Shown here: in pieces, positions 20,029-60,393 of the stretch | Layout: every line of letters starts with the position of its first letter | Position numbering within the stretch: position 1 is the first letter of the stretch | NCBI GenBank assembly: GCA_045808065.1 | Contig: JBJMGD010000011.1 | Location: 128,577 to 192,576 of the forward strand | Length of the DNA stretch: 64,000 nt | Source of the DNA: Terriglobales bacterium | GTDB taxonomy: Bacteria > Acidobacteriota > Terriglobia > Terriglobales > Acidobacteriaceae | Direction of reading: 5' to 3' | Program-made: the position numbers and the translations under genes | Notes under the pieces: model-generated | What the model was told of the DNA's origin: nothing | The model's input: only the letters and a program-made list of their open reading frames with translations | Databases searched by the model: none

Positions 20029-20043
20029 GATTTCGGGTTAGGA

Positions 20044-45010: not shown

Positions 45011-45113
45011 GTAGTCCCTCTCTGTTGTCCAGTGTAATAGAGCCAGACCAAGTATCGAGAAAATGCACACAGAACCAGGCTTACGGATTACTCCCAACTA
45101 GAATGTGCGCACT

Positions 45114-47327
45114 TCATTTTCTGAATGCAACGTTGATCAGCAATTTCTCGCCGGAGACATCTACTACATTACAGAATGACCTTTGGCCCTGCCGGGAAAA
45201 ATCCAACGCCACGCGGCTATTTCCGATACGCAGATTGCGAATGCGCAGGAAATCGAGCCAATCAGGAAGTACCGGATTGACGATGTTCAATTCCTTGCGC
45301 GCTGCCGATGGACGAATCCCGAGCACAGAAGTAAGTAACAGAAAAAATGCTCCCGACGCCCACGCCTGCGGCGAACACGACACTGGATAATGCACTGGTT
45401 CATCGTATTCATTGCGCTGTACTCCACAGAAAAGTTCTGGCAGTCGATAATCCCGGAAATTCAGTGCAGCGTGATAGAGCGAACTGAATATTGTTTGCAC
45501 TTCATCGCGGAAACCGTACAGTGCCATTCCGTGAGCAACCAGTGAATTATCGTGCGGCCACACCGACCCGCGATGATAGCTAAGGGGATTGAACACTTTC
45601 TCGGACGCCGCCAAAGTTCGCCATCCCCAACCTGATTCCATGTCGTCACGCATGAAGCGCTGCACGACCATACGTGCACGCTCCCGGCTAATGGCACGCG
45701 TAAAGAGGAGATGTCCAGGGTTGGAGGAGATGACTTCCAGTGGACGCTTCTGATTGTCCAGACCCATCGCGTAGAAGGATTCGGCCGGAAGCCAGAAGCT
45801 TTTCTCTATCTTCTTTGCCAACTCCGCCGACGATTTCCGCAATCGATCGGCATGATCGGTATCGCCGACGTGGCGCAGCAGCTGGGCCATGCGATATTGC
45901 GCTTCGTAGCAATAACCCTGAACTTCCACCAGCGCAATCGGCGGATTGGCGACGCTTCCATCGCGATGCATATTGGCGTCCCAGGAATCTTTCCATCCTT
46001 GATTTGTCAACCCCTTGGGCGAGCGCCGTTTGTACTCGATGAAACCGTCGCCGTCGAGGTCCCCGTACCGTTCGATCCACTGGAGTGCCGCGCGGGCAGC
46101 GGGCAAGAGATCTCGCACCAACTGCTCGTCGGCCGTCCAATTGAAAGCTTCACTTAGGAGGATCAAGAACAGTGGAGTAGCATCCACCGATCCGTAGTAG
46201 GGACCGAACGGCATCTCGCCCGCGCGCGTCATCTCGCCGGTTCGGTACTCGTGAGGGATTTTCCCAGGCTCCTCGTCGAGCCAATCGTTGAACTGCTTGC
46301 CTTGATAGCGTGCAAGAACGCGTAGTGTCTCCCCGGCCAGCCGTGGGTTCAGAAGCAGCGACTGATAGGCGGCGATCAACGAGTCGCGTCCGAACATGGT
46401 GGCGAACCATGGAATACCTGCAGCGACGATGTGCTGATCTCCGTTCGGAATCTGGAGCGCATGAAAGTCCGCTATGCAGGTGCGAAGTGCCTGGTCAAAG
46501 ATGTCGTTACTGCTCTCGAAGGTGGTGGAATCCTGCTCCCATCGGTGATACGCCTCGCGCCGCTCACGGAAACCTTGCACCACGGTCCTGCTCGTTGGTC
46601 TCGGTGGCTCGTCGCCCACGCGACAGCTGATGGTGTTCAGAATTTCGCGAAAACCGGAAGCAGGAACTTTCAGATTCCACCGGGCAATGTTCTTTTCAAT
46701 TGCATCCGGCGGTGTCTGGAATCGAATCACCGTCTCACGAGTGATGCTGTCGAGTCCAAGATAAAAGAAGACAAGGGAATCACCGCGAATCAACGGCTTG
46801 TAGTAGCGGCCGCACTTTTGCCGCGCACAGCCACGCACTTGGAACACATCGACGAAGTCGGCCTCCAGCGCGATCTCAATCATCAGGTCTGCGTCGGATT
46901 GGTTGAAGTTAGAAAAAATGATGGAGTCATACAGCAACCCTGAAGCCAACAATTGCTGGCGACGGATGTGTATCGTGTTCTCGGGAAGATCAAAGGAGTT
47001 GATTTGGGATAAGGAGCCAGTGGTCAGCTCAATCTTTGAAGCGAAGCTTTTCTCTTCGCTCGATGAGAGGACGACCGTGCGGTTTCCTCCCACTCTCAAC
47101 TCCATCTTGCTAAGAAAGCGGGTATCGTCATGAAAAAAGCCGACGTCGGGAGCGCCGGGCGGAGTAATGTCCCCCGAGACTGTGGTCGAAAGAAATGTTT
47201 TGCCGTCGATTAGAGTGAGATTGTTGACCTTGCGAGGCTCGTGAACCAGGAAGCCAAGCTGCGGCTCAGGATATGGACAGCCGACCTCTTCGAGTTCGTC
47301 CGCCGGAATGCGGACCAGCGTGCTCAC
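45114..47327 (-). CDS. Amylo-alpha-1,6-glucosidase / glycogen-debranching-enzyme-like protein (GDE N-terminal domain plus an (alpha/alpha)6 catalytic domain)
   Basis: 737 aa. It has GIPWFATMFGRDSLI, GKIPHE, LTNQGWKDSWD and YHRGSVWPHDN, typical of the bacterial/archaeal GDE_C family. Confidence 0.8.
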   Translation of the reverse strand: MSTLVRIPADELEEVGCPYPEPQLGFLVHEPRKVNNLTLIDGKTFLSTTVSGDITPPGAPDVGFFHDDTRFLSKMELRVGGNRTVVLSSSEEKSFASKIELTTGSLSQINSFDLPENTIHIRRQQLLASGLLYDSIIFSNFNQSDADLMIEIALEADFVDVFQVRGCARQKCGRYYKPLIRGDSLVFFYLGLDSITRETVIRFQTPPDAIEKNIARWNLKVPASGFREILNTISCRVGDEPPRPTSRTVVQGFRERREAYHRWEQDSTTFESSNDIFDQALRTCIADFHALQIPNGDQHIVAAGIPWFATMFGRDSLIAAYQSLLLNPRLAGETLRVLARYQGKQFNDWLDEEPGKIPHEYRTGEMTRAGEMPFGPYYGSVDATPLFLILLSEAFNWTADEQLVRDLLPAARAALQWIERYGDLDGDGFIEYKRRSPKGLTNQGWKDSWDANMHRDGSVANPPIALVEVQGYCYEAQYRMAQLLRHVGDTDHADRLRKSSAELAKKIEKSFWLPAESFYAMGLDNQKRPLEVISSNPGHLLFTRAISRERARMVVQRFMRDDMESGWGWRTLAASEKVFNPLSYHRGSVWPHDNSLVAHGMALYGFRDEVQTIFSSLYHAALNFRDYRLPELFCGVQRNEYDEPVHYPVSCSPQAWASGAFFLLLTSVLGIRPSAARKELNIVNPVLPDWLDFLRIRNLRIGNSRVALDFSRQGQRSFCNVVDVSGEKLLINVAFRK

Positions 47328-48406
47328 GCCGCGGCCCCCGGTTCAGCCATCAGCGGCATCGTTTCCACGGAACCAAGCTTCACGCTCTGCCGATCAAAGT
47401 AAATGGACTCGTACAGGCTCAAATACTTGGCAACCATGACGCCGACGGAAAAGTTCTCCCTGGCGTACTCATGGATGACCTCTGATGAAATTGAAAGATT
47501 GCAAATACGCTCTGTCATCTCCTCGACATTTTCGCAAACGTAACCAGAGACTCCGTCGACCACTACTTCGCTTACCGATCCTCCCCGCAACGCGATCACT
47601 GGCGTGCCGCATGCCATGGCCTCGATCATCACCAATCCGAACGGCTCATTCCATTGAATGGGAAAGAGCATCGCCATCGAATTCCCCAACAGCTCATTTT
47701 TTGCCTGAAGGTCGGCTTCCCCGACGTATTCGATAAAGCGGCCATCGATGTGGGGCTTGACCTCAGCTTCAAAGTAGCTCTTAAACATCGGCTGCACTTC
47801 GCCCGCGATCTTGAGCGGAATCCCAGTTTTCTTTGCCACGGCGATCGCCAGATGGGGACCCTTCACCGGCGCCAAGCGTCCGATGAAACTGAGATATTGC
47901 TGCTTGTGTTTCTGAAATGGATAATCCCCGATCTTTATTCCGTGATGGATCGTCTGCCGCCGCGGCATGGCTTCAAGAGAGCGTTGGAAATCGCTGATGG
48001 TGACGTAATTCACGTCCGGATAGTAGGCATAGAAGGCGCTGAGGCTGTCTTCATGGGGATGGTGAACCGTGTAGACGAACGGGAGATCCAACAATCGGGA
48101 GATCGCTAGTCCGGGAGCGTTGTTCAGATGCAGAATGTCACAATCTGGTGCGGCGTCAGCAATCGCCCAGGCGGTGTGATTCATGTCCTTCAAGCTGCCA
48201 AAGATGTCGCCGTGTAAGGGCCAATCTGAGTTCGGGTACAGGGATCTCACTTCCACGTCCACGGTCGAATCGCCATTAGCGTAGACCACCACGTCAACGC
48301 CGCGTTGCTTCAGCCCCTCGGCAAGATGGCCTATGAACAGCTCGGTTCCTCCGTACATCCTGGGCGGCACAGCGATGAAAGGCGAGGCGATCAGGGCAAT
48401 TCTCAT
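47324..48406 (-). CDS. GT4-family (GT-B) glycosyltransferase
   Basis: 360 aa. It has MRIALIASPFIAVPPRMYGGTE and C-terminal EPFGLVMIEAMACGTPVIALRGGSVSEVV. It overlaps the GDE-like gene by 4 nt. Confidence 0.9.
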   Translation of the reverse strand: MRIALIASPFIAVPPRMYGGTELFIGHLAEGLKQRGVDVVVYANGDSTVDVEVRSLYPNSDWPLHGDIFGSLKDMNHTAWAIADAAPDCDILHLNNAPGLAISRLLDLPFVYTVHHPHEDSLSAFYAYYPDVNYVTISDFQRSLEAMPRRQTIHHGIKIGDYPFQKHKQQYLSFIGRLAPVKGPHLAIAVAKKTGIPLKIAGEVQPMFKSYFEAEVKPHIDGRFIEYVGEADLQAKNELLGNSMAMLFPIQWNEPFGLVMIEAMACGTPVIALRGGSVSEVVVDGVSGYVCENVEEMTERICNLSISSEVIHEYARENFSVGVMVAKYLSLYESIYFDRQSVKLGSVETMPLMAEPGAAA

Positions 48407-48566
48407 TTGTCTCCTTAAATCAAGAGGTTGCGGGACTTAGCGGAGGTATCTGCCAGGATCGTGCACTTCGAACATTGATAAGATGCGGAACCTTGAGGCA
48501 GACGTTGGCGCGTGGGCCAGGGAATGGTTGGTGCAGCAACTTCGTTGCGGTTGATTATCAAGGGCT

Positions 48567-49667
48567 CTAGCTCACCAGGGCGCCGGTCGAGACACTCTGC
48601 CGCTGCTTTGAACGCTCAATCGCATTCTCAAACTGTATCGCGCGGACCTCACTGGTGTGTTCGGCGAGGACACGCTCTTGAGCTGCATCACCGATTTCTC
48701 GCAATTCAGAATCCGAGAGTGAAAGATAACTCAGTACATCGTCCGCATCGACGGGCAGCAGTATCTCCCGTCCGGGAACGAAGAAGGAGTCGAGCCCGGG
48801 CCAATTATCGGAGAGGATGGCCGCGCCGCATGCAGCGGCCTCAAACAATCGCACTGAAGGCGAATAGCCCGCGATAACCATCTCGCGGCGCGTGACATTC
48901 AGGTTAAGGCGCGACGAGGAGTAAAAACGCGCGTGCCAACGTGGATTTAAATGGACAATGCGCCGAATGTTCTTCGCCCAACGAATTTGTTTTGGATATT
49001 GCGGTCCAGCAACGATGAAATGTTTGTCTGGCGATCGCATCGCCGGACGCACCAGCAACTCTTCGAGCTTTGCCTGGCGGTCAGGGGCATAGGTTCCCAT
49101 GTAGCTCAGATCGCACGCGAAACGTTTGTTCGTGCCGAAGCGGCGATACTGGCGGGGATCAAATGAGCAATAAAGCGGAACCGCTGATCGTGCTGCAAAA
49201 AGCTGTTCGATCTCCCCCAGCATCGGACCGCCAGTGAAGCTGAAATACACATCGAAACCCGCAACCTGCCCAGCTTCCAAATAGTCTGTTTTGCCGCGAT
49301 CGCGAAGGCTCGCCACCGTAATGGGAGTATCGATGTCGTAGAACGCTTTCGCAGCGGCGCGACTGTCAAAGAGTTCATCGATCGCAGCAATGCCGTCTGG
49401 AAAGTAAGACCCAACCAATCCCACATCAGCACTCACGAGCTCTCTCCGCACTTCGGTCACGATGCTTGACCAGCTGTCGTAAAGTCTCAGACGACAGAAC
49501 GATGGTTCTGGCAGATCGCGATTGGATGCGTACCACTCGAGGTCTCTCTCGTAGAACACAATGTCGTGCCCGCGACGATGGAGCGCTTCCAGCAGCGCGC
49601 GGAATGTGGTCGCGTGCCCATTCCCCCAAGCCGACGTGATGGAGAGGCCAAAGACAACGATCTTCAT
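48567..49667 (-). CDS. CgeB-like GT-B glycosyltransferase, paralog A
   Basis: The start was set at ATG 49667 (MKIVVFGLSITSAWGNGHATTFRALLEAL). The C-terminus has SPSVRLFEAAACGAAILSD. The layout matches paralogs B and C. Confidence 0.75.
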   Translation of the reverse strand: MKIVVFGLSITSAWGNGHATTFRALLEALHRRGHDIVFYERDLEWYASNRDLPEPSFCRLRLYDSWSSIVTEVRRELVSADVGLVGSYFPDGIAAIDELFDSRAAAKAFYDIDTPITVASLRDRGKTDYLEAGQVAGFDVYFSFTGGPMLGEIEQLFAARSAVPLYCSFDPRQYRRFGTNKRFACDLSYMGTYAPDRQAKLEELLVRPAMRSPDKHFIVAGPQYPKQIRWAKNIRRIVHLNPRWHARFYSSSRLNLNVTRREMVIAGYSPSVRLFEAAACGAAILSDNWPGLDSFFVPGREILLPVDADDVLSYLSLSDSELREIGDAAQERVLAEHTSEVRAIQFENAIERSKQRQSVSTGALVS

Positions 49668-49675
49668 GGTTTTGT

Positions 49676-50758
49676 CTAGGCTACCGCACAAGGACGCACG
49701 GCTTGTTCCAGCAACATTGAAACCTCAACGGCTCGTTGCGAATAGGTGTGATCTCGCAATGCGCGTCGGTGCATTGCGAGTCCAATTCCTTCTGCTTCTT
49801 CGCGAGCGGTAGTGCGTAACAAATGAACAATCTCCTCCGCGGAGCTCGCTACCAGAATTTCTTCTTCCGGCTCAAAGAATGTTCCGATTCCAGCCCATGC
49901 GTCGGTGATCAAGCACGCGCCAGCTCCGGCCGCCTCAAAGACTCTGGTCGGAGGAGAGAAACCCACATTGGCCATCGAGTCGCGATTTAAATTCAGCACC
50001 ATGCGAGCAGAGCAGTTGACCCGATTGTGGTCCCCAGTTCCAACGTGACCGATCCAGCGAATATTTGTCGGAAGAGTCTTGTTGCCCCAACCCTCTCCGC
50101 CAAGAATGAAGCGCAGGTCGGAAGCCAGTTCGGCAGCTTTTACGAAGAAGGCTTCCACGCGGCGTTCACGATCCGGCAGGCGATTTGCAACCAGCAGGAG
50201 ATCGCAATCGAACGCCGAGTCTTTCGAAACTGGATAATGGGTTGCCGGCTCGAGAGCGTTGTAAATCGGGTGGCAATTACGTGCTCCCAGACGCAAATAG
50301 TGGTCGACGACGGGCGGACCACCGCCATAGGTAAACACGAAATCGTACTCGGGGATCAGTTTGCGAAATTCGTCTGAGGAATTATGTTCAACCCGGGCTA
50401 GAGTTGCCGGCGCATCCACATCCCAGAATGCGCGGAGGGCGTCAGTTTTGATGCCGCGCGCCACAGCACGCTCAAGTTCAACGTCGTCAGCACCTACACC
50501 GCTGTGTTTGATGATGAGCTCAGCTCCAGCTGCCCTTGCCAACATTTCCGGCAAATCGGTCGGAGTCGTATAGATGAGACTCTCGACGTAGCTGTAATCG
50601 CCCGCATCACGCTTTTGCTGCCTTCCGTAAATGTCGGGCTCAGCAAAGATAATGCGATGGCCGAGTAGAGCAAGATTGCGATAAATCCCGCGGTAATATG
50701 TCGCCGCTCCGTTCCAGTAGGAAGAGGTAATGCTGGAACCGAAGACGAAAATCTTCAT
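49676..50758 (-). CDS. CgeB-like GT-B glycosyltransferase, paralog B
   Basis: 360 aa. It has MKIFVFGSSITSSYWNGAATYYRGIYRNL and SPPTRVFEAAGAGACLITD. Confidence 0.75.
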   Translation of the reverse strand: MKIFVFGSSITSSYWNGAATYYRGIYRNLALLGHRIIFAEPDIYGRQQKRDAGDYSYVESLIYTTPTDLPEMLARAAGAELIIKHSGVGADDVELERAVARGIKTDALRAFWDVDAPATLARVEHNSSDEFRKLIPEYDFVFTYGGGPPVVDHYLRLGARNCHPIYNALEPATHYPVSKDSAFDCDLLLVANRLPDRERRVEAFFVKAAELASDLRFILGGEGWGNKTLPTNIRWIGHVGTGDHNRVNCSARMVLNLNRDSMANVGFSPPTRVFEAAGAGACLITDAWAGIGTFFEPEEEILVASSAEEIVHLLRTTAREEAEGIGLAMHRRALRDHTYSQRAVEVSMLLEQAVRPCAVA

Positions 50759-54250: not shown

Positions 54251-55362
54251 TATGCCGTCCTCTCCAGCAACTCGACATTGGCAACTTCGCCGGTTTGAAG
54301 CTCAGGTTCTAGCGGGCTCGCGCCGAAGATGGCCGGATGCTCTCTCCAAAACTCGAAGATTGCCTCGAGAGTTTGCCGTACAGACGACCGGGGCTTCCAT
54401 CCGGTGTGCAGGGTGAGTTTCGAGTAATCGCTCACGTAAATAAGCTGGTCGCCTGGTCGGCGGCGGTCGTGCGAGTATCTCAGACGCTTGCCCGTGAGGG
54501 AGCCGATTTCATCGATCAACTCGACGAGAGAAATTGTGTTTTCCGGTCCGCCGCCTACGTTGTAGATCTCTCCGCCACTTTCTGAGAGCGATGAACGAAC
54601 AGCCTCGAACGCGCGAACCAGGTCTCCGACGTAGAGCACGTCGCGGACTTGCCGTCCATCGCCGTAGATGACAAGCGGAGCACCACGTAACGCCGTGTAA
54701 AGAAAATGAGCAACCCAGCCCTGATCTTCGTTCCCGTACTGCATCTCGCCCGCGATGCAGGACATGCGAAAGACCACGGTGGGCAAGCCGTACATGCGGG
54801 AATACTCACGAACATATTGATCGGCCGCTCCCTTAGAACAACCGTATGGAGAATGGAAATCCAGCGGCTGCTCCTCGCAGACCGCTTTTCGGTCAGCGTA
54901 AGCGTAGCGAGTTGACCCACGTTTGAGCGGCTCTTCGAGCATCTCGCCATAAACCTTGTTAGTGGAAGTGAACAGGACAAACGGCCGATTTCCCGAAAGT
55001 CGCGCCGCCTCAAGAACATTGAAGGTTCCAATGCTGTTGGTCTCGAAGTCGCAACGCGGATCGGTGATGGAAGTAGTTACGGCAACCTGTGCCGCAAATT
55101 GATAAATCTCGGTGACATCCTTCGTAGCGCGCTGAACCGCGGCTGAATTCCGAACGTCGCCTATAGTGACGCGCAGCCGACCAGACTTGGCCGCCGCCTG
55201 CTTGAGTTGCTCCAGGTTATGTTGAACGCCCCGTCGAGAAAGATTGTCGAAGATGTGCACTCGGGCGTTGGTCTCGAGCAGCAGGCGACGCGCCAAATTT
55301 GCGCCGATAAATCCTGCTCCGCCAAAGATCAGTACCGACCGATTCTCGTCTTGCTTAGCCAT
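54250..55362 (-). CDS. NAD-dependent sugar epimerase/dehydratase (extended SDR)
   Basis: The start was set at ATG 55362, preceded by GAGGAGA. A GTG at 55413 that overlaps the upstream stop is the alternative. It has VLIFGGAGFIGANL and YGCSKGAADQY (YxxxK). Its stop overlaps the rSAM start by 1 nt. Confidence 0.85.
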   Translation of the reverse strand: MAKQDENRSVLIFGGAGFIGANLARRLLLETNARVHIFDNLSRRGVQHNLEQLKQAAAKSGRLRVTIGDVRNSAAVQRATKDVTEIYQFAAQVAVTTSITDPRCDFETNSIGTFNVLEAARLSGNRPFVLFTSTNKVYGEMLEEPLKRGSTRYAYADRKAVCEEQPLDFHSPYGCSKGAADQYVREYSRMYGLPTVVFRMSCIAGEMQYGNEDQGWVAHFLYTALRGAPLVIYGDGRQVRDVLYVGDLVRAFEAVRSSLSESGGEIYNVGGGPENTISLVELIDEIGSLTGKRLRYSHDRRRPGDQLIYVSDYSKLTLHTGWKPRSSVRQTLEAIFEFWREHPAIFGASPLEPELQTGEVANVELLERTA

Positions 55363-55409
55363 TCTCCTCGATTCCCTTCCTCGGCTTTCGTCGCAACCCG
55401 GTACACGGG

Positions 55410-56531
55410 TCACGCTGTAAGCCCAAACGTTTGCAACTCGGCAACCATGTTGTCCGCTTTGTCCTCCGCGCTCTGTTCACGCAGCCAACGGACTAGTTCC
55501 AATACACCTTCATCGAACTTCACCTGAGGTTCGTATCCCAGCATCACTCGGGCTTTACTGATATCGCCAAAGCAGTGGCGGATATCTCCCGCTCGATACT
55601 TACCCGTTATCTCAGAGGGGATCTCCAAGCCCAGCGAACGTGACAACGCGTCTGCCACCTCTTGGATTGAGACCGGCATCCCCGAGCCGATGTTGAAGGC
55701 GCGCCCATTCGCTTCGTCGGAGTTCATCGCCAGCAGATTCGCTGCGACCACGTCATGCACGCTCACGAAGTCGCGCATCTGCTGACCGTCTTCAAAAATC
55801 AAAGGTGCGCGCCGATTTAGTAGCCGTGAGGCAAAAATCGCTGCTACACCGGTGTATGGATTCGAGAGCGCCTGGCGGGGACCGTAGATGTTGAAATACC
55901 GCAACGCGACTACAGGAAGTCCGTAGGTTTTGCCGTACAGCAAGCAGATTTCTTCCTGGTCCTTCTTTGAAAGCGCATACACGGACGTACATTGCAGCGG
56001 CTTGGTCTCACTGGTCGGAAGCGGAGTAAGGTCGGTGCGGCATCTTGGACATAGAACCTCCCACCGCTTGCTCAGTAATTGACCGGAGTCTCTCGGTCCT
56101 GGGGCAACATCACCGCAGTTCGCGCAGAGGTATTGGCCTTCTCCATAGATCGACATTGACGAGGCGACTACCAGCTTCTCGACCCGGCTCTTGCGATCCA
56201 GCAGAGCTTGCAATAGAACCGCGGTGCCCTGGGTGTTCGAGGCCATGTAGTCAGCGATCTGATACATGGATTGGCCGACACCAACTGCGGCGGCTAGATG
56301 AAATATGACTTCAACGTCATCAATTGCCCGTCGCACAGCATCAGCATCTCGCATGTCGCCCCTGATCAGGTCGACCTCAGGTGATAGATAATCTGGAACT
56401 CCATTTCCATGAACTTGTGAGGACAAGTTATCTAACGCACTTACCTCGTGGCCAGCGGTCAGCAGGGCGTCTGCCAGATGGGAACCTACAAATCCAGCTC
56501 CACCAGTGATCAGGATTTTCTTCGTACTCAT
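55410..56531 (-). CDS. NAD-dependent sugar epimerase/dehydratase (extended SDR) with an inserted four-Cys zinc ribbon
   Basis: The start was set at ATG 56531 (MSTKKILITGGAGFVGSHL), preceded by GGAGA. It has SSMSIYG and YALSKK (S/YxxxK). The insert is YLCANCG...VLCPRCRTD, between the Ser and Tyr motifs. Confidence 0.85.
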   Translation of the reverse strand: MSTKKILITGGAGFVGSHLADALLTAGHEVSALDNLSSQVHGNGVPDYLSPEVDLIRGDMRDADAVRRAIDDVEVIFHLAAAVGVGQSMYQIADYMASNTQGTAVLLQALLDRKSRVEKLVVASSMSIYGEGQYLCANCGDVAPGPRDSGQLLSKRWEVLCPRCRTDLTPLPTSETKPLQCTSVYALSKKDQEEICLLYGKTYGLPVVALRYFNIYGPRQALSNPYTGVAAIFASRLLNRRAPLIFEDGQQMRDFVSVHDVVAANLLAMNSDEANGRAFNIGSGMPVSIQEVADALSRSLGLEIPSEITGKYRAGDIRHCFGDISKARVMLGYEPQVKFDEGVLELVRWLREQSAEDKADNMVAELQTFGLTA

Positions 56532-56560
56532 CTCGTCGTCTCCAGCGTTCAAATTGCTCG

Positions 56561-57502
56561 CTACCTGCTTGCAGCTTCCCTCGCATAGGGTCGGCCGTCT
56601 TTTTCCCTTGCGTGTGCTCCTCTAGGCGGCGCATACCGCCTGACCGCCCACTCCGCAAACTCTGCAAACGCATTTGCCTCCTTAGGAGGACTTGTGTAAT
56701 GCGGAGCTATGCCCAAATGCTCAGGAGTAAAACAGAGCGTGATAGTGGTGTCGAACTCCTCCAACGCTCCCATCTGCCGATCGAACCACTCCTCCGCATT
56801 GGGACGATACGTGTCCGCCCAACTCACGCCGGTCCGCAGATGTCGGACCTTGAGCCGTCTCAGCCATTCCACGCCCAAGTCCAGCCGATGATCTTCGAAA
56901 TGAAACCACTGGCAGAGCCCGAGCCCTTGCGGAAAATGTTCAGCGGCCAGCTTGGGAGTGCCATCCTCGCGCAGCAGCCCCATGTAGTAGTGGCGATAGT
57001 AGGCGCTGCCTTCAGCTTCCTTGTGGCGCGTTGTGGCAGTCCACGAAGCTGGAAGATCGAAGAGGCTGTACCAGTGAACGCGATCCACTCTCCCGAGCAA
57101 AAGCTCCGCCATCCGCTGCAGTCCGAAAAGCTGCACTTCCTCCGCCCCGAACGATGAGGCGCCAACCTCAGAAATCCAGATCGGAAGTTTCGTAACCTCC
57201 CGTACTTCGTCGAGCTTTGCCGGCCATTCGTTTACGTTCCAGTGATTCCAGTCCAGCGGGAATCCGTGCAGGGCCACCACGTCGATCGCGTCCAGCACGC
57301 CATGCGAAGCCATTAAGCGGATGAAATGCGGATCGATAGGCGAAATCCCGCCGAGCACGATCGGCAACTCGGGGTTGACTCGCCGTATCGCTTTAGCAGC
57401 CTGGATAGCCATCTCGGCAAACATCTTCCATTCGGGATCGATTTTGAAATCCCAATGGGAAAGATTGTTTGGCTCATTCCACAGCATTACGGCTTCGACC
57501 AT
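56561..57502 (-). CDS. Clan GH-A-like (beta/alpha)8 glycosidase-fold protein, apparently circularly permuted
   Basis: 313 aa. An NEP acid/base-type motif sits at residues 9-11 (MLWNEPNN). ALHGF, the nucleophile-type WISEVGAS and HWYSLFD follow. The C-terminal third (RHLRTGVSWAD, TITLCFTPEH, FAEFAEWAVRRYAP) looks like strands 1-3, which normally precede NEP. Confidence 0.6.
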   Translation of the reverse strand: MVEAVMLWNEPNNLSHWDFKIDPEWKMFAEMAIQAAKAIRRVNPELPIVLGGISPIDPHFIRLMASHGVLDAIDVVALHGFPLDWNHWNVNEWPAKLDEVREVTKLPIWISEVGASSFGAEEVQLFGLQRMAELLLGRVDRVHWYSLFDLPASWTATTRHKEAEGSAYYRHYYMGLLREDGTPKLAAEHFPQGLGLCQWFHFEDHRLDLGVEWLRRLKVRHLRTGVSWADTYRPNAEEWFDRQMGALEEFDTTITLCFTPEHLGIAPHYTSPPKEANAFAEFAEWAVRRYAPPRGAHAREKDGRPYAREAASR

Positions 57503-57526
57503 TAGTTCCTCATGGTTCTTTCACTT

Positions 57527-58357
57527 CTAAAGTGTTCCCTCGAGCTCGAGATCGAGGACGTATTGACCTTTCCGTTGTACCCGGCGCGGCTCGCACACGT
57601 AAGTCTCAGACTCGGGATGTGCGACTATCTCCAAACCCGAACTGCGCAGCATGCCTTCTACGGCCCCGCGGTTCGGTATCCACCAATTGGTAGGATCATT
57701 GGCATAGCTGTTCTCAATGAAGTACATGCATGGAAAGTCAGGATCTTTAAAAGGGTGCATGTCCCAGAATTGGTAGTCCTCCTTCCACTGCCGTTCCTCC
57801 TCGGAACCACGAATCATGCTCTGGAAGAAAAGCTTTCGTGAAACTTTCTTGATGATCTTATCGAGGGCGTACAGTGGATATCGCAAGTGATAGAAGACAC
57901 CGAGGAAGAGCACATAATCGAATTGGCCTTCGATTCTGTCGACCTGATATACAGAACGCTTCTGAAATTCGATCTCCAGTTTCAACGTTTCGGCGGCAAA
58001 ACGGGCTTGGTTCAGGTAGCGCTCATCGACATCCACGCCTAGTACTCTGCCCGCACCCCTCTTTTTGAGCTCAATGCAATAAAAGCCGCCGTTACAGCCG
58101 ATGTCGAGCACAGAAGCTCCCTGGAGGTCTTCGGGAAAGGCTCTGGAGATGTGTTTCCATTTAACGTTCGGGAAGTCGCCAAGAAAATGATTAGGGGCGG
58201 TCCACACTCCGTTGATATTTAGGTTGTGAAACCAGTCTCCGAGCGAACTAATGCGTTCCGCCAAGCTCGGCTCCTCGGCTGCGGTTCGGTGCTGCTGGTT
58301 TTCGTCAGTTTCGGAGTGAATGTCGATGACTAGCTGCCGGGTTTGATCTGGTTGCAC
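57527..58357 (-). CDS. Class I SAM-dependent methyltransferase (DUF1698/CmoB-like)
   Basis: 276 aa with a GTG start, preceded by GGGAGA. It has WFHNLNINGVWTAPNHFLGDFPNVKW, then motif I VLDIGCNGGFY and VLGVDVD. Confidence 0.8.
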   Translation of the reverse strand: MQPDQTRQLVIDIHSETDENQQHRTAAEEPSLAERISSLGDWFHNLNINGVWTAPNHFLGDFPNVKWKHISRAFPEDLQGASVLDIGCNGGFYCIELKKRGAGRVLGVDVDERYLNQARFAAETLKLEIEFQKRSVYQVDRIEGQFDYVLFLGVFYHLRYPLYALDKIIKKVSRKLFFQSMIRGSEEERQWKEDYQFWDMHPFKDPDFPCMYFIENSYANDPTNWWIPNRGAVEGMLRSSGLEIVAHPESETYVCEPRRVQRKGQYVLDLELEGTL

Positions 58358-58574
58358 CGCTGGTTCTCCCGCTCTTTGCGATCACAGTTGCCCATTTCGG
58401 CATCAGCTCTCGGCCTTGTTACAAAACGCTGTGATCTATCCTCTGCTCCGAGTTTCGGAACAGCAACTAGCGAAGTTGGTTAGAGGAAAAGGAACTTACC
58501 TTGGATGTCCCGTTGCGTGCGTCAAGGCGCGTCACAAGAAGTGTGCAATCAGGTAGTTACTTGCAGCTGCAACG

Positions 58575-60011
58575 TCAAGATGAGCTAAGGTTTGCAGATG
58601 CTCCAGCTGTCGAGCTTTCATACAGCTTCAGCTTTCGGTAAAGCGTCGTTTTCCCGATGCCTAGCATCTGCGCCGCGAGTAGTTTGTCACCTTTCGCTTC
58701 CGCGACGGCATTAAGAATTGCGTGCCGTTCAACTTCTACAATCGGCACCACGCGACCGACCCGACGCAGTGGTTCATCACCAGGAGCTCGTGGCATTGTG
58801 AACCGTGAATTGATCTGAGTTGGAAAGTCGATCGGCTCAAGCATCAGATCAGTTCCAAGCGCCACCGCGCGTTCGATGAAGTTCTCAAGCTCACGCACGT
58901 TTCCCGGCCACGAATAAGTCTTCAGCATCCTTATTGCCTCACGCGAAATCTGCCGCCGGGGTTGGCCCGTGCTCCTCGCGATCCGCTCCAGAAAGGTTTC
59001 AATAAGGTCCTCGATATCCTCCATCCGCTCGCGCAACGGGGGCAACTTCAATGTGACCACATTCAGGCGGAAATAGAGATCCTTGCGGAATCTCCCTTCT
59101 TTCACAGCTTCTTCCAAGTTCCGATTTGTGGCGGCTATAACGCGCACGTCGATGCGAATGCGTTTCGTGCTTCCGACCGGGCGAATCTCCTTTTCTTGTA
59201 AAGCGCGAAGAAGCTTTGCTTGAAGCTCTACTGGAAGTTCTCCGATTTCATCGAAAAAGACCGTGCCTCCCTCCGCGATCTTCAGCAATCCCTCCTTGGA
59301 CCGCTCTGCCCCGGTAAACGATCCTCTCTCATGGCCGAAGAGCTCAGTCTCCATCAGCGTCGGGACCAATGCGCCGCAGTCGACTGGCATGAATGGACGT
59401 TCGCGTCGTGTGCCGCTGAAGTGGATAGCGCGAGCAACCAACTCCTTGCCAGTGCCACTTTCCCCAAGGATCAGCACGGGATGAATGTTGGCAGCCACTT
59501 TGCCGATAATCTTGTACAGCTTCCACATCACGGGTGTCTTTCCCACGATGCCGTAGGCTCCTTCCACGTCTGGCGATTCGCGGATCCGGGGGTGCTCACC
59601 TTTCTCTGATCGGTACTGTTCCATGGCGCGCTCGATTGTAAGCCGCAGAATGCCTGCTTCCAATGGCTTCGGCAGGTAATCGAATGCCCCTAGCTTGGTC
59701 GCCTGAACCGCCGATGAAAAACTGGGCTTCTCCGCGACCACGATAACCTGCGTCTCCGGATACCAATAGTGAACGTGCCGCAACAATTCGAGTTCCTGGG
59801 CGCCTGGAAGATTTTCACTGAGCAGGAGTACGTCTACCAACCCTGATTCCAAGGAGTCGAGGACCATGTCGGAGTCTCGGGCCGAGCGAACCGTGAGAGG
59901 TAAGTCACGAATGACATCGATGGACAAGTCAACAGTGCGGCTATCGGTATCGGCGACCAAAAGCTCGGACGAGGTAAATACCGGGCCGGAAACCACATTA
60001 GGGAGAATCAC
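58575..60011 (-). CDS. Sigma-54-dependent enhancer-binding protein (NtrC family) with a degenerate receiver domain
   Basis: 478 aa. It has a receiver-like N-terminus ending in GAFDYLPKP, an AAA+ core ([38 protein letters not shown]) and a C-terminal Fis-type HTH ([17 protein letters not shown]). Confidence 0.9.
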
Positions 60012-60393
60012 TCGGCGGCTAGAGCAGGCGTGCTTCCAACCGTTTAATAGCCGTAACTTCTTGAAAACAAGAGATCCCGTTTTGGTAAGGTTCGTCCCGC
60101 CATCTGCCTCATTTGAAACTTGCTCTGCGGAGATGCTCGCTCGAACGTCATGGGGGATGCCAGAATACTATGGCATCGGACGGGCGCTTACCTTCCCTTT
60201 TTGGGATGGTTTCCTATTCTGGGAGCGTCTCCAAGCAAAAAATCGAGGCCATGGCCTATGGACGATTCAGAGGTGCTTGGCTTTTGGTCTGAAGGAGGCA
60301 GAAAAAACGTCAGTTACAATAGAGGATTCCTCACAGAGCCTGTCAGGTCACAGCCGACCTTGACGCACTGCTGGGAGGAAAGGTCTGTCTAGG

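What the first reader, a model, noticed from the sequence alone, without database searches (positions are those of the whole stretch)
45114..60011. Uncharacterised sugar-modification locus headed by a sigma-54 EBP and built around a B12-radical-SAM enzyme
All genes are on the minus strand. From 58357 down to 48567 they are packed with 1-13 nt overlaps or gaps under 50 nt.

Order in that core:
- DUF1698/CmoB-like SAM methyltransferase.
- GH-A-like barrel.
- SDR epimerase/dehydratase with a Zn ribbon.
- A second SDR epimerase/dehydratase.
- B12-binding radical SAM protein (CPWACTFC).
- GT4-like transferase.
- Three CgeB-like GT-B paralogs.

After a 160-nt gap come a GT4 and a GDE/amylo-alpha-1,6-glucosidase-like gene (4-nt overlap), then a CDGSH Fe-S protein. 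An NtrC-type EBP lies 217 nt upstream on the same strand.

The window contains no Wzx/Wzy/Wza, ABC exporter, priming phosphoglycosyl transferase or sugar nucleotidyltransferase. It therefore does not look like a standard EPS or O-antigen locus. Five GT-B enzymes together with two hydrolase-type folds and C- or O-methylation chemistry point to a cytoplasmic modified oligosaccharide or glycoside. I know of no characterised pathway with this composition.

My unverified recollection is that NCBIfam/TIGRFAM defines a methyltransferase family and a B12-rSAM family that co-occur in sugar contexts (TIGR04290/TIGR04295-like names). Membership would need an HMM search.
Basis: partly seen in the sequence, partly recalled or inferred. 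Interest (0 to 1): 0.8.

Follow-up and report, generated by a model that had tools for sequence, protein, structure and literature searches.

The report
Uncharacterised radical-SAM glycan-building gene cassette
Nine tightly packed genes for soluble sugar-handling enzymes, built round a vitamin-B12-type radical enzyme and shared by hundreds of soil bacteria in at least two phyla, probably make a still-unknown modified sugar chain inside the cell; annotation databases already flag two of its families, but I found no study showing what it makes.

Summary
In detail: gene order, spacing and domain calls are all as described. The methyltransferase scores above the curated cut-off of TIGR04290, and the radical SAM protein above that of TIGR04295.

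JGI names the latter family "rhizo-twelve system", so the cassette is already catalogued. Eight literature searches found no characterisation.

The conserved unit is nine genes: MT, barrel, SDRa, SDRb, rSAM, GT4a and three CgeB-like GTs.
- It is colinear in 33 of 56 assessable Terriglobales loci.
- It recurs at 28-66% identity in Azospirillum, Bradyrhizobium, Tistrella, a Geminicoccaceae bacterium and a 12.5-Mb genome.
- Natural fusions (rSAM-GT4a, barrel-SDRb) tie the parts together.
- The barrel is a true circular permutant of a PslG-like glycosidase fold.
- All core proteins are soluble, and the window holds no export or priming genes.

The "sigma-54-headed" reading is not supported. There is no -24/-12 promoter, and the EBP is adjacent in only 13 of 38 related loci. 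A different conserved promoter-like motif sits between the EBP and the operon. GT4b, GDE and CDGSH are lineage-specific accessories.

Best reading (about 0.4): a cytoplasmic assembly line for a radical-SAM-tailored, methylated oligosaccharide or glycoside. This is a new variant of a catalogued, unsolved system.

The parts
57527..58357 (-). Core gene 1: class I SAM methyltransferase, TIGR04290 family (276 aa).
   Evidence: It scores 358 bits on TIGR04290 against a cut-off of 300. The nearest solved structures are small-molecule and sugar methyltransferases (an unnamed methyltransferase 5jdy, WbdD, ToxA, EvdMO1, CmoB) at about 1e-9. It is 45-56% identical to the proteobacterial copies.
56561..57502 (-). 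Core gene 2: circularly permuted (beta/alpha)8 barrel, PslG/GH39-like, annotated elsewhere as 'beta-xylosidase' (313 aa).
   Evidence: PslG matches at E 4e-6, with query 3-184 on PslG 132-319 and query 204-220 on PslG 40-55. The AF2 model has pLDDT 80.9, pTM 0.84 and eight strands. Re-permuted (190-296 + 1-189), it aligns colinearly with the Tistrella fusion domain at E 2.6e-43. WNEPNN and IWxxExG are conserved. It is the best-conserved protein between phyla, at 65-66%.
55410..56552 (-). Core gene 3 (SDRa): extended SDR of the GalE / UDP-uronate 4-epimerase type, with a roughly 40-residue insertion carrying CxxC...CxxC (380 aa).
   Evidence: Pfam Epimerase is split into two stretches. The nearest solved structures include 6dnt, the Thermotoga GalE 4zrm, MoeE5, the epimerase-domain protein 6zl6 and WbgU/WbpP; that MoeE5 and 6zl6 are UDP-GlcA 4-epimerases is from my own knowledge. 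The insertion is conserved in all phyla. The four Cys occur only in the acidobacterial version among the seven sequences aligned.
54250..55413 (-). Core gene 4 (SDRb): extended SDR, CDP-tyvelose 2-epimerase-like (387 aa; the real start may be the ATG 17 codons in).
   Evidence: PDB 9rl0 matches at E 2e-75 and 1orr at 7e-68. The motifs are STNKVYG and YGCSK. It is fused to the barrel in Tistrella and the Geminicoccaceae bacterium. It stays next to the rSAM even in 'orphan' loci.
52961..54250 (-). Core gene 5: B12-binding-domain radical SAM protein, TIGR04295 family (429 aa).
   Evidence: It scores 616.8 bits against a cut-off of 400, with CPWACTFC at 207-214. The AF2 model (pLDDT 71.7) matches TsrM at 6e-15, and also MgmA, OxsB, AprD4 and TokK. 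It is fused to GT4a in P0123/L085. At least 571 relatives occur in species-representative genomes.
51870..52973 (-). Core gene 6 (GT4a): GT4 glycosyltransferase. It overlaps the rSAM gene by 13 nt (367 aa).
   Evidence: Glyco_transf_4 (E 2e-19) plus Glycos_transf_1 (E 2e-15). PDB matches are GlgM at 7e-8, MshA at 9e-5 and GlgA. It is the least conserved core protein, at 28-33% to proteobacteria.
50755..51873 (-). Core gene 7 (Cge1): CgeB-like PF13524 GT-B (372 aa).
   Evidence: PF13524 E 3e-36. It has a 1:1 orthologue at 43-48% in proteobacteria. A profile of the trio hits BshA at 4e-7, and also SPS, GlgM, PimB' and MshA.
49676..50758 (-). Core gene 8 (Cge2): CgeB-like PF13524 GT-B (360 aa).
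   Evidence: PF13524 E 1e-36. It has no single-sequence PDB homologue. Its orthologue is 48-52% identical in proteobacteria.
48567..49691 (-). Core gene 9 (Cge3): CgeB-like PF13524 GT-B (374 aa from the TTG; the likely start is the ATG at 49667).
   Evidence: PF13524 E 1e-35. Its orthologue is 47-50% identical in proteobacteria. An extra Cge3-like copy sits next to MT in Bradyrhizobium and in Edaphobacter-type loci.
58480..58507 (-). Conserved promoter-like bipartite motif, CATCC-N18-TCTAA, about 125-150 nt upstream of the MT start.
   Evidence: It is the only copy in the window. The motif is found upstream of MT in 20 of 47 loci, against a background of 0.0044 per 450 nt. Its function is inferred, not shown.
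47324..48406 (-). Accessory (lineage-specific): GT4b, a glycogen-synthase-like GT4, after a 160-nt gap (360 aa).
   Evidence: Glycos_transf_1 E 8e-23. The best NCBIfam hit is glgA_Coryne, below cut-off. It follows the core in 16 of 33 complete loci and is absent from proteobacterial loci.
45114..47327 (-). Accessory: archaeal-type glycogen-debranching-enzyme-like hydrolase (737 aa).
   Evidence: GDE_N_bis E 8e-48, plus MGH1-like_GH and GDE_C. PDB 7vma 'Amylo-alpha-1,6-glucosidase, putative archaeal type GDE' matches at E 5.5e-99.
44747..45097 (-). Accessory: CDGSH [2Fe-2S]-type protein with a hydrophobic N-terminus (116 aa). A role as redox partner of the rSAM is pure inference.
   Evidence: zf-CDGSH E 4e-20. 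It is the only protein of the set with a hydrophobic 19-mer above 1.6 at its N-terminus. It is present after GDE in about a dozen related loci.
58575..60011 (-). Neighbour, not shown to belong: NtrC-family EBP with a pseudo-receiver (478 aa).
   Evidence: Sigma54_activat E 6e-67, with the GSFTGA loop intact. Ser replaces the phospho-accepting Asp in the window, L001 and L003. It is adjacent in 13 of 38 loci. No -24/-12 promoter lies downstream of it.

Best explanation
The nine genes from 58357 down to 48567 form one operon that encodes a self-contained cytoplasmic assembly line for a small, tailored oligosaccharide or glycoside.

Proposed steps:
1. SDRa (4-epimerase type) and SDRb (CDP-tyvelose-2-epimerase type) remodel nucleotide sugars through transient keto intermediates. 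Neighbours in other genomes hint at UDP-glucuronate-derived sugars.
2. GT4a and the three non-redundant CgeB-like, GT4-related transferases each add one residue to a soluble acceptor.
3. The B12-type radical SAM enzyme works in physical partnership with GT4a. It modifies an unactivated carbon of the nascent glycoside, most likely by C-methylation.
4. The TIGR04290 enzyme adds a conventional (probably O-) methyl group.
5. The permuted PslG-like barrel keeps both catalytic glutamates. It trims, sizes or recycles the product, as the endo-mannosidase MmpH does for mycobacterial methylmannose polysaccharide.

In Alphaproteobacteria the acceptor is probably myo-inositol or inositol phosphate, because an inositol-3-phosphate synthase and a histidine phosphatase are in the cassette. 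In this acidobacterium the acceptor is unknown.

The product stays in the cell. I suggest, tentatively, that it acts as a stress or dormancy protectant.

Shown: gene content, family memberships, cross-phylum conservation, the fusions, the permutation, solubility, and the absence of export genes.
Inferred: every chemical step, the product and the physiological role.
For: Operon structure:
- Spacing runs from a 16-nt overlap to a 24-nt gap through all nine genes.

Conservation:
- The same order occurs in 33 of 56 assessable Terriglobales loci, plus 7 near-complete ones.
- All nine have orthologues in Bradyrhizobium, Tistrella and the Geminicoccaceae bacterium, and eight (no SDRb) in Azospirillum brasilense, at 28-66% identity. 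Each of the three CgeB-like genes has its own 1:1 orthologue.
- The rest of the core (SDRs, rSAM, GT4a and the Cge trio, without MT or barrel) also occurs in a 12.5-Mb genome.
- Flanks of core-only loci are unrelated, so the nine genes are the unit.

Fusions:
- rSAM-GT4a is a single 844-aa protein, followed by three PF13524 genes.
- Barrel-SDRb is fused in two genera.

Cytoplasmic location:
- No core protein has a hydrophobic 19-mer window above 1.6.
- No flippase, polymerase, exporter or priming transferase is encoded in 64 kb or in the annotated proteobacterial loci.

Transferases resemble enzymes that glycosylate small soluble acceptors:
- The Cge profile hits BshA at 4e-7, and also SPS, GlgM, PimB' and MshA.
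- GT4a hits GlgM and MshA.

Links to substrates:
- Inositol-3-phosphate synthase plus a histidine phosphatase are in all five Azospirillum and Bradyrhizobium loci examined. The synthase is also in L087.
- UDP-glucose 6-dehydrogenase lies next to SDRb-rSAM in L020.
- UXS-like SDRs occur in four proteobacterial loci.

Enzyme features:
- The rSAM has class B architecture; the nearest structures are TsrM, MgmA, OxsB, AprD4 and TokK.
- The barrel keeps the NEP and nucleophile Glu motifs.

Mechanistic analogy:
- The MMP cluster pairs a glycosyltransferase and methyltransferases with an endo-hydrolase that makes primers (PMC9883506).

Stress hints:
- A perfect EcfG-type GGAAC-N16-CGTT lies upstream of the first cassette gene in both Bradyrhizobium copies, and a near-match in the Geminicoccaceae locus.
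- Neighbours include Ku, LigD, Mn catalase, a ferritin-like protein, treZ, a sigma factor and a SpoIIE phosphatase.
Against: - No product, substrate or phenotype is known. All chemistry is inferred from distant family resemblance.
- Structure search does not separate methylases from OxsB or AprD4 chemistry.
- Pfam B12-binding is below its gathering score (25.6 against 32.1).
- The window has no inositol genes and no sugar-activating enzyme, so the acceptor and donors here are unknown.
- 16 of 56 related loci keep the rSAM (with or without SDRb) but not the transferases. The rSAM can therefore be encoded apart from the transferases and may work without them.
- PslG and CgeB, the nearest named relatives of two parts, both belong to cell-surface glycan systems.
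- Across whole loci the EcfG motif occurs about as often as chance predicts. Only its position is telling, and Azospirillum lacks it.
- The three CgeB-like proteins could form one hetero-oligomeric polymerase rather than add four single residues.
Confidence: 0.4

Rival explanations
1. The cassette makes building blocks and a repeat unit for a cell-surface polysaccharide (EPS, capsule, O-antigen or a cyst/spore-type coat glycan). Priming, flipping and export genes would lie elsewhere in the genome.
For: - The barrel's only solved relative is PslG of the Psl exopolysaccharide system.
- PF13524 is the CgeB spore-crust family.
- Extended SDRs and GT4s are typical of O-antigen loci.
- Azospirillum and Ramlibacter, the organism TIGR04290 is named after (Rta_06860), form cysts (own knowledge).
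Against: - There is no membrane protein, priming transferase, flippase, polymerase or exporter in the window or in any of the seven annotated or gene-called distant loci.
- Flanks of core-only loci are unrelated.
- The barrel has no signal peptide; the protein starts at strand beta-4.
- The transferases resemble enzymes that act on soluble acceptors.
Confidence: 0.2
2. It is a secondary-metabolite cluster for a cyclitol- or aminoglycoside-like glycoside, with the B12-rSAM playing a GenK- or AprD4-type tailoring role.
For: - The best sequence match of the rSAM in the PDB is the aminoglycoside enzyme AprD4 (E 4e-6), and AprD4 is also among the fold hits.
- Inositol-3-phosphate synthase, SDRs, glycosyltransferases and a methyltransferase sit together in the proteobacterial loci.
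- Several copies are on plasmids or megaplasmids.
Against: - No aminotransferase, resistance or efflux gene is present in any locus examined.
- Relatives of the rSAM occur in at least 571 species-representative genomes, and the nine-gene order is fixed in most of the Terriglobales loci examined. That fits a physiological function better than a sporadic natural product.
- The window itself has no cyclitol gene.
Confidence: 0.12
3. It builds the glycan head group of a membrane glycolipid, such as a glycosyl-inositol or PIM-like lipid.
For: - The Cge and GT4a profiles hit PimB' and MshA.
- L087 has a CDP-alcohol phosphatidyltransferase and an inositol-phosphate synthase beside the cassette.
Against: - No acyltransferase or membrane-anchored enzyme is in the core.
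- The CDP-OH transferase appears in one locus only, on the opposite strand.
- The window has neither gene.
Confidence: 0.1
4. One reading: the whole 14-gene stretch is one sigma-54 regulon unit switched on by the adjacent EBP.
For: - The EBP is on the same strand, 217 nt upstream, with an intact AAA+ domain and GSFTGA loop.
- An EBP sits upstream of MT in 13 of 38 related loci, over a wide identity range of 38-74%.
Against: - No -24/-12 element lies in the gap.
- The conserved motif there does not fit GG-N10-GC.
- The EBP is missing from the close relative L057, from 25 of 38 loci and from every proteobacterial locus.
- Several of the 'EBPs' in related loci have a degenerate GAFTGA loop.
- The window EBP lacks the phospho-acceptor Asp.
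- GT4b and GDE are separated by 160 nt and are only variably present.
Confidence: 0.1

Closest known systems
The 'rhizo-twelve system' cassette, defined bioinformatically by TIGRFAMs/NCBIfam models TIGR04290 (meth_Rta_06860) and TIGR04295 (B12_rSAM_oligo). Seen here in Azospirillum, Bradyrhizobium, Tistrella and a Geminicoccaceae bacterium.
   Same: - Both marker proteins score above the curated cut-offs.
- The core is the same: SDRa, SDRb, rSAM, GT4a, three PF13524 GTs, MT and barrel, with 1:1 orthologues at 28-66% identity.
- JGI gives the name 'rhizo-twelve system' to acidobacterial homologues.
   Different: - The window lacks the inositol-3-phosphate synthase, histidine phosphatase, nucleotidyltransferase, phosphopentomutase and UXS-like SDR of the proteobacterial versions.
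- It has instead a GT4b/GDE/CDGSH tail, an upstream EBP, cysteines in the SDRa insertion, and its own promoter-like motif.
- The function of the whole family is unknown.
Mycobacterial polymethylated polysaccharide pathways, i.e. the MMP cluster ManT, MeT1, MeT3, MmpH (PMC9883506), and MGLP.
   Same: The logic is the same: soluble glycosyltransferase(s), methyltransferase(s) and a dedicated endo-hydrolase in one small operon. The product is cytoplasmic and no export machinery is present. In MGLP the primer is made by a glycosyl-phosphoglycerate synthase plus a histidine-phosphatase-family enzyme (own knowledge), which echoes the Ino1/histidine-phosphatase pair here.
   Different: - No homology to the MMP or MGLP enzymes was tested or shown.
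- The mycobacterial systems have no radical SAM enzyme, no SDRs and no CgeB-like GTs.
- This is a 'works like' comparison only, not membership.
Class B (cobalamin-dependent) radical SAM enzymes: TsrM, TokK, MgmA/Mmp10, and the sugar-modifying GenK, OxsB and AprD4.
   Same: It has an N-terminal Rossmann-type domain plus a radical SAM core with CxxxCxxC. Foldseek E-values run from 6e-15 to 1e-9 for TsrM, MgmA, OxsB, AprD4 and TokK.
   Different: - Sequence identity is only 14-17%.
- No characterised member falls in TIGR04295.
- The best NCBIfam cross-hits (BchE 69 bits, HpnR 54 bits) are far below their cut-offs.
- The chemistry (methylation, rearrangement or dehydration) cannot be assigned.
PslG, the GH39-like endoglycosidase of the Pseudomonas Psl system.
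   Same: It is the only solved sequence relative of the barrel (E 4e-6). The NEP acid/base and nucleophile Glu motifs align.
   Different: - The window protein is circularly permuted (beta4-8 followed by beta1-3).
- It is cytoplasmic, with no signal peptide.
- It is about 100 residues shorter.
- In other genomes it is fused to an SDR.
CDP-tyvelose 2-epimerase (PDB 1orr, 9rl0).
   Same: SDRb aligns over its full length at E 2e-75. It shares the STNKVYG and YxxxK motifs.
   Different: The substrate is unknown. SDRb sits next to UDP-glucose dehydrogenase or UXS-like genes rather than CDP-sugar genes. No NCBIfam equivalog cut-off is reached.
Small-acceptor GT4 enzymes: BshA, MshA, GlgM, sucrose-phosphate synthase and PimB'.
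   Same: These are the best PDB profile hits for the CgeB-like trio and for GT4a.
   Different: E-values are only 1e-7 to 1e-3. PF13524 (CgeB-like) proteins have no solved or biochemically defined member that I could find.

Membership tests
TIGR04295 (B12_rSAM_oligo) | Whole-protein HMM score at or above the curated cut-off (400 bits). | tested here: met
   616.8 bits, E 1.6e-185, covering the full length 2-426.
TIGR04295 (B12_rSAM_oligo) | Radical SAM CxxxCxxC cluster motif. | tested here: met
   CPWACTFC at residues 207-214. It is invariant in 30 close homologues. Three distant family representatives lack it.
TIGR04295 (B12_rSAM_oligo) | N-terminal cobalamin-binding domain that actually binds B12. 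| tested here: inconclusive
   Pfam PF02310 scores 25.6 bits, below its gathering score of 32.1. The AF2 model shows a Rossmann-type N-domain and matches the cobalamin-bound TsrM, TokK and OxsB. Cofactor binding itself cannot be tested with these tools.
TIGR04290 (meth_Rta_06860) | Whole-protein HMM score at or above the curated cut-off (300 bits). | tested here: met
   358 bits, E 1.7e-107.
'Rhizo-twelve' cassette | TIGR04290 and TIGR04295 genes in one neighbourhood with several glycosyltransferases. | tested here: met
'Rhizo-twelve' cassette | The full proteobacterial gene set, including inositol-3-phosphate synthase and histidine phosphatase. | tested here: not met
   Neither is in the 64-kb window. 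The original TIGRFAMs definition of the twelve genes was not available to me.
Sigma-54-dependent operon | Adjacent EBP with an AAA+ domain and a GAFTGA-type loop. | tested here: met
   Sigma54_activat E 6e-67, with a GSFTGA loop.
Sigma-54-dependent operon | A -24/-12 (GG-N10-GC) promoter upstream of the operon. | tested here: not met
   No match with up to 2 mismatches in 58358-58574. Window-wide there are 39 hits against 36 expected. By eye, the nearest candidates have GG-N11-GC spacing.
Sigma-54-dependent operon | The EBP is conserved with the operon. | tested here: not met
   It is adjacent in 13 of 38 Terriglobales loci and in 0 of 7 distant loci.
Wzx/Wzy-, ABC- or synthase-dependent polysaccharide locus | A priming phosphoglycosyl transferase, flippase or polymerase, exporter, or membrane synthase. 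| tested here: not met
   None in the window. No transmembrane segments in core proteins.
Clan GH-A retaining glycosidase (PslG/GH39-like) | (beta/alpha)8 barrel with an acid/base Glu in an NEP motif and a nucleophile Glu. | tested here: met
   The AF2 model has eight strands and pTM 0.84. WNEPNN and IWISEVG align to the PslG motifs and are conserved across phyla.
Clan GH-A retaining glycosidase (PslG/GH39-like) | Canonical strand order and a Pfam or CAZy family score. | tested here: not met
   It is circularly permuted. Glyco_hydro_cc scores 20.0 bits against a cut-off of 21. Foldseek finds only generic TIM barrels.
Clan GH-A retaining glycosidase (PslG/GH39-like) | Glycosidase activity. | not testable with these tools
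   This needs an enzyme assay on the unknown product.
CDP-tyvelose 2-epimerase-like SDR (SDRb) | Full-length similarity and the Ser/Thr-Tyr-Lys catalytic motifs. | tested here: met
   9rl0 at E 2e-75 and 1orr at 7e-68. STNKVYG and YGCSK are present. Substrate and reaction were not tested.
   TIGR01181 scores 180.7 bits against a cut-off of 365. The motif is TNK, not TDE (the significance of the motif is from my own knowledge).
PF13524 Glyco_trans_1_2 (CgeB-like) | Pfam gathering score of 25 bits. | tested here: met
   124.9, 126.4 and 123.0 bits for the three paralogues.
Mycobacterial PMPS (MMP/MGLP) pathway | Homology to ManT, MeT1, MeT3, MmpH or to the MGLP enzymes. | not tested
   Used only as a mechanistic analogy (PMC9883506). 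No membership is claimed.

The most novel reading that the evidence does not exclude
The nine-gene cassette makes a previously undescribed class of intracellular carbohydrate. This would be an oligosaccharide or glycosyl-cyclitol carrying a carbon-carbon modification (C-methyl, branched or rearranged sugar) installed by a cobalamin-dependent radical SAM enzyme acting on the growing glycoside. It would be used by hundreds of soil bacterial species from at least two phyla as a stress or dormancy protectant. That would be the first B12-radical-SAM step in what amounts to core carbohydrate physiology rather than antibiotic tailoring. It would also give first functions to the CgeB-like GT family and to a permuted GH-A barrel.
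Probability: 0.3. Interest if true: 0.8.

Novelty: new variant of a known kind. Interest (0 to 1): 0.55.

Why it matters
If the reading is right, a large share of Terriglobales, which are dominant soil bacteria, and several plant-associated Alphaproteobacteria make an unknown modified sugar compound by chemistry not yet seen in central carbohydrate metabolism.

Solving it would do four things:
- assign function to two 'hypothetical equivalog' families, TIGR04290 and TIGR04295;
- assign function to the widespread PF13524/CgeB-like transferases;
- give a natural example of a circularly permuted glycosidase barrel;
- add a sugar substrate class to cobalamin-dependent radical SAM enzymology.

Genetically tractable hosts carry the cassette: Azospirillum brasilense and A. 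lipoferum, Tistrella mobilis and Bradyrhizobium. The question can therefore be tested directly.

The window itself is one ordinary member among hundreds, and annotation databases have already flagged the cassette.

Tried and rejected
- **Sigma-54 promoter.** I searched the window with TGGCAC-N5-TTGCW at up to 2 mismatches. The count matched chance and nothing fell in the EBP-MT gap. A looser regex on the upstream regions of 43 loci gave only scattered hits. Rejected.
- **Sigma-70 promoters and intrinsic terminators.** The scan of 44400-60500 gave fewer sites than shuffled sequence.
- **Rfam.** Nothing matched in 44400-60500 at E up to 1, so there is no known riboswitch or leader.
- **Foldseek of the barrel model.** It returned only generic TIM barrels. 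Sequential aligners cannot follow a permutation.
- **Tistrella non-permuted barrel domain against PDB sequences.** No hit. The permutation was proved instead by re-permuting the window protein.
- **Cge2 alone against the PDB.** No hit. A 22-sequence profile was needed.
- **Genomic context of distant rSAM representatives.** The contigs for P0121, P0132 and P0144 were too short to inform.
- **Literature.** Eight full-text searches were run. Those on TIGR04295/TIGR04290/rhizo-twelve, on CgeB plus radical SAM, and on inositol synthase plus radical SAM found nothing on this cassette. The Bordetella b-Cool oligosaccharide locus has no radical SAM or methyltransferase gene and is unrelated. The Ensifer aridi paper does not mention inositol-phosphate synthase, radical SAM enzymes, glycosyltransferases or epimerases.
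- **EcfG motif.** About one GGAAC-N15-17-YGTT per 25-kb locus is expected by chance, and that is what is seen. Only the hits directly upstream of cassette genes in Bradyrhizobium and the Geminicoccaceae locus carry weight.
- **Horizontal transfer.** GC content is flat across the window at 0.53-0.58, so there is no compositional sign of recent transfer.

Full report
**What is there**

From the methyltransferase gene (start 58357) to the third CgeB-like gene (end 48567), nine genes follow each other closely. Spacing ranges from a 16-nt overlap to a 24-nt gap. A 217-nt gap separates the upstream EBP. A 160-nt gap separates the downstream GT4b-GDE pair, which overlaps by 4 nt, and CDGSH follows 16 nt later.

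The Pfam and NCBIfam scans confirm every domain call.
- the methyltransferase scores 358 bits on TIGR04290 (cut-off 300);
- the radical SAM protein scores 616.8 bits on TIGR04295 (cut-off 400), with CPWACTFC in place.

The rest of the window is housekeeping: TruB, a rhomboid protease, a copper ATPase with its CsoR-type repressor, a complex I operon, an S15 peptidase, YebC, MscL, a GH20 hexosaminidase and UvrA. It contains no Wzx, Wzy, Wza, priming transferase, sugar nucleotidyltransferase or ABC exporter. No core protein has a membrane-spanning segment.

**Whose genome, and is the cassette already known**

The exact rSAM protein is on record from a Terriglobales (Acidobacteriota) MAG. JGI names many homologues 'B12-binding domain/radical SAM domain protein of rhizo-twelve system'. 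The curators of TIGRFAMs therefore already noticed a conserved neighbourhood. NCBI rates both marker families only as 'hypothetical equivalogs'.

Eight full-text searches of PMC and bioRxiv found nothing on this cassette. One hit, the Bordetella b-Cool oligosaccharide locus, turned out to have no radical SAM or methyltransferase gene. The eighth search was for the mycobacterial analogy used below.

**Conservation defines a nine-gene core**

A scan of one genome per GTDB species found at least 571 stretches that encode a relative of the rSAM. The best 80 are all Acidobacteriota MAGs. I mapped the window proteins onto these loci with tblastn:
- 33 carry MT-barrel-SDRa-SDRb-rSAM-GT4a-Cge1-Cge2-Cge3 in exactly this order;
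- 7 more are near-complete or have MT moved to a divergent unit with a fourth Cge3-like gene;
- 24 are cut by contig ends, and their visible genes follow the same order;
- 16 have only the rSAM, with or without SDRb.

GT4b and GDE follow the core in 16 of the 33 complete loci. In core-only loci the flanks are unrelated genes.

The same core recurs on replicons of Azospirillum, Bradyrhizobium, Tistrella and a Geminicoccaceae bacterium. Identities to the window proteins are:

| Protein | Identity to proteobacterial copies |
|---|---|
| Barrel | 65-66% |
| MT | 45-56% |
| SDRa | 45-53% |
| SDRb | 46-49% |
| rSAM | 45-47% |
| Cge1-Cge3, each to its own orthologue | 43-52% |
| GT4a | 28-33% |

The barrel figure is for the stand-alone copies of Azospirillum and Bradyrhizobium; the fused copies described below are 29-36% identical. 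SDRb gave no match in the A. brasilense locus.

The SDRs, rSAM, GT4a and the Cge trio (without MT or barrel) also occur in a 12.5-Mb, 70% GC genome. The refutation condition 'the genes do not co-occur outside this genome' is therefore clearly not met.

**Gene fusions and a circular permutation**

In one metagenomic lineage the rSAM and GT4a are a single 844-residue protein, followed by three PF13524 genes. This matches their 13-nt overlap in the window.

In Tistrella and the Geminicoccaceae bacterium the barrel is fused to the N-terminus of SDRb. There the two halves of the barrel appear in the opposite order: window residues 185-274 come first, then 5-193.

- Re-permuting the window protein (190-296 + 1-189) gives one colinear alignment of 291 residues with the Tistrella domain (E 2.6e-43). 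The native order gives two swapped segments.
- The same swap is visible against PslG, the only solved relative (E 4e-6).
- The AlphaFold model (pLDDT 80.9, pTM 0.84) has eight strands.
- Foldseek, which aligns sequentially, finds only generic TIM barrels, as expected for a permutant.
- Both catalytic motifs of clan GH-A enzymes, WNEPNN and IWxxExG, are conserved in all versions.

**What the individual enzymes resemble**

- **SDRb** is not a dehydratase. It matches CDP-tyvelose 2-epimerase over its full length (E 2e-75). It carries STNKVYG instead of the Asp-Glu pair of 4,6-dehydratases.
- **SDRa** groups with GalE and UDP-uronate 4-epimerases. Its roughly 40-residue insertion is conserved in every phylum. 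The four cysteines that make it look like a zinc ribbon occur only in the acidobacterial version among the seven sequences aligned.
- **The CgeB-like proteins** have no solved relative by single-sequence search. A 22-sequence profile reaches BshA (4e-7), sucrose-phosphate synthase, GlgM, PimB' and MshA. GT4a also reaches GlgM and MshA. These are mostly retaining GT4 enzymes that glycosylate small soluble acceptors.
- **The rSAM model** (pLDDT 71.7) matches the cobalamin-dependent enzymes TsrM, MgmA, OxsB, AprD4 and TokK (E 6e-15 to 1e-9). This confirms class B architecture. It does not separate methylation from other radical chemistry.
- **The methyltransferase** resembles small-molecule and sugar methyltransferases.
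- **GDE** is strongly similar to an archaeal-type glycogen debranching enzyme (7vma, E 5.5e-99). GT4b is glycogen-synthase-like. That pair looks like an alpha-glucan module added in one acidobacterial lineage.

**Clues from accessory genes elsewhere**

- All five Azospirillum and Bradyrhizobium loci examined include inositol-3-phosphate synthase and a histidine-phosphatase-family gene inside the cassette.
- Bradyrhizobium adds a nucleotidyltransferase, a phosphopentomutase, an extra Cge3-like transferase and a UXS-like SDR.
- Tistrella and the Geminicoccaceae bacterium also have the UXS-like SDR.
- The 12.5-Mb genome has the inositol synthase and a nearby CDP-alcohol phosphatidyltransferase.
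- In one of the 'orphan' loci that I inspected (L020), SDRb-rSAM is followed by UDP-glucose 6-dehydrogenase. In both inspected (L020, L026) a SpoIIE-type phosphatase lies just upstream on the opposite strand.

These neighbours point to UDP-glucuronate-derived sugars as substrates. In proteobacteria they point to inositol or inositol phosphate as the acceptor. None of these genes is in the window, so for this organism the donors and acceptor remain unknown.

**Regulation**

The sigma-54 idea does not survive testing.
- No GG-N10-GC element lies between the EBP and the operon, and matches in the window as a whole equal chance.
- The EBP is adjacent in 13 of 38 related loci. It is absent from the close relative L057 and from all distant loci.
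- In the window, L001 and L003, its receiver domain has Ser where the phospho-accepting Asp should be. In several Angelobacter-type loci the neighbouring 'EBP' has a degenerate GAFTGA loop.

Instead, a bipartite motif, G(G/A)CATCC-N18-TCTAA, lies upstream of MT in the window (58480-58507) and in 19 other loci. That is about a hundred times the background rate. Its spacing suggests an alternative-sigma promoter, but this is inference.

In Bradyrhizobium a perfect EcfG general-stress consensus (GGAAC-N16-CGTT) precedes the first cassette gene in both plasmid copies. A near-match precedes SDRa in the Geminicoccaceae locus. Because the motif is short, only its position is meaningful.

Neighbouring genes in the proteobacterial loci give the same flavour: Ku, LigD, Mn catalase, a ferritin-like protein, treZ and a sigma-70-family gene. 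No known RNA element, sigma-70 promoter or terminator stands out.

**Most likely mechanism**

I read the nine genes as a cytoplasmic assembly line.
1. The two SDRs remodel nucleotide sugars.
2. GT4a and three non-redundant CgeB-like transferases build a short chain on a soluble acceptor.
3. The B12-type radical SAM enzyme, coupled to GT4a, modifies an unactivated carbon. C-methylation is the most common chemistry of this class (own knowledge).
4. The TIGR04290 enzyme adds a conventional methyl group.
5. The permuted barrel trims or recycles the product.

The nearest working analogy is the mycobacterial methylmannose polysaccharide cluster. There a transferase, methyltransferases and an endo-hydrolase that generates primers act together in the cytoplasm (PMC9883506). 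No homology to that system is claimed.

I put this reading at about 0.4. The rivals are:
- a surface polysaccharide with export genes elsewhere (0.2);
- a cyclitol or aminoglycoside-like natural product (0.12);
- a glycolipid head group (0.1);

**Novelty and verdict**

The window holds one ordinary member of a widespread cassette that annotation pipelines already label. The finding is therefore not a discovery of something unseen. The cassette's product and chemistry are unknown, and no characterised pathway matches it.

This acidobacterial version differs from the proteobacterial one in three ways: it has no inositol module, it carries an alpha-glucan-type tail, and its regulatory region differs. 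I rate it a new variant of a known (catalogued, unsolved) kind, with interest 0.55.

The points added here should make the system easier to attack experimentally:
- the nine-gene core;
- the two fusions;
- the proven permutation;
- the reassignment of SDRb;
- the inositol and UDP-glucuronate links;
- the rejection of sigma-54 control.

Noticed in passing
L007, L016, L020, L022, L026, L035, L040, L047-L049, L051, L053, L055, L071, L074, L077 (rSAM at about 10001-11300 in each): Sixteen Terriglobales genomes carry a TIGR04295 rSAM 68-75% identical to the window's, but without the cassette. Only SDRb lies upstream in some. In the two loci inspected (L020, L026) a SpoIIE/PP2C phosphatase lies just upstream on the opposite strand, and in L020 UDP-glucose 6-dehydrogenase lies downstream. 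Where the transferases are in these genomes is unknown.
   Followed up: partly
window 58480-58507 (-), and upstream of MT in L001-L005, L008, L010, L013, L017, L019, L031, L039, L041, L045, L056, L060, L062, L066, L072: A conserved bipartite motif, G(G/A)CATCC-N18-TCTAA, occurs about 100 times over background. It fits neither the sigma-54 nor the sigma-70 consensus. It may be the promoter of an unidentified alternative sigma factor.
   Followed up: partly
window 58575-60011 (-), residues about 60-70 of the EBP: The NtrC-family EBP has Ser in place of the phospho-accepting Asp (LLLSENLPG) and Ala in place of the conserved Thr. It is therefore a pseudo-receiver. L001 and L003 share this. More distant neighbouring EBPs keep the Asp but have lost the GAFTGA loop.
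   Followed up: partly
P0122, P0132, P0138 (50%-identity cluster representatives of the rSAM family): Three family members lack the CxxxCxxC motif altogether, although P0132 scores above the TIGR04295 cut-off and P0122 and P0138 fall only just below it. They may be catalytically dead paralogues. Context could not be recovered for P0132 (contig too short) and was not looked up for the other two.
   Followed up: partly
window 41831-44683 (+): An AAA+ (Mg-chelatase/MoxR-like, weak hits) and VWA-domain gene pair converges on the CDGSH gene. The VWA protein is 81-91% identical in L005, L017, L031, L032, L060 and L066. That is more conserved than any cassette protein.
   Followed up: no
L012 (JBLMYN010000334.1): This contig is labelled an Actinomycetota MAG. 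It carries the cassette with 75% rSAM identity and Terriglobales gene order, so it is probably a mis-binned acidobacterial contig.
   Followed up: no
L082 and L092 (Bradyrhizobium sp. 195 plasmids p195_2 and p195_1): The same strain carries two near-identical 15-gene copies of the extended cassette on two conjugative plasmids. Each is preceded by the same EcfG-type GGAAC-N16-CGTT motif.
   Followed up: partly
L081 19178-19780 and L087 6742-7314: A DUF1003 gene recurs close to the cassette in Azospirillum brasilense and in the 12.5-Mb genome. A potassium-channel-family gene flanks it in both Azospirillum species.
   Followed up: no
window 5142-8025 (-): A copper-type P1B ATPase has N-terminal YHS and two HMBD domains. 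A CsoR-type metal-sensitive repressor gene lies just upstream on the same strand. This is ordinary metal homeostasis.
   Followed up: no
window 12297-26039 (+): A complex I (nuo) operon has two unassigned ORFs (23247-24023 and 24189-24503) between the NuoL-like and NuoM/N-like genes. Neither has a Pfam hit.
   Followed up: no
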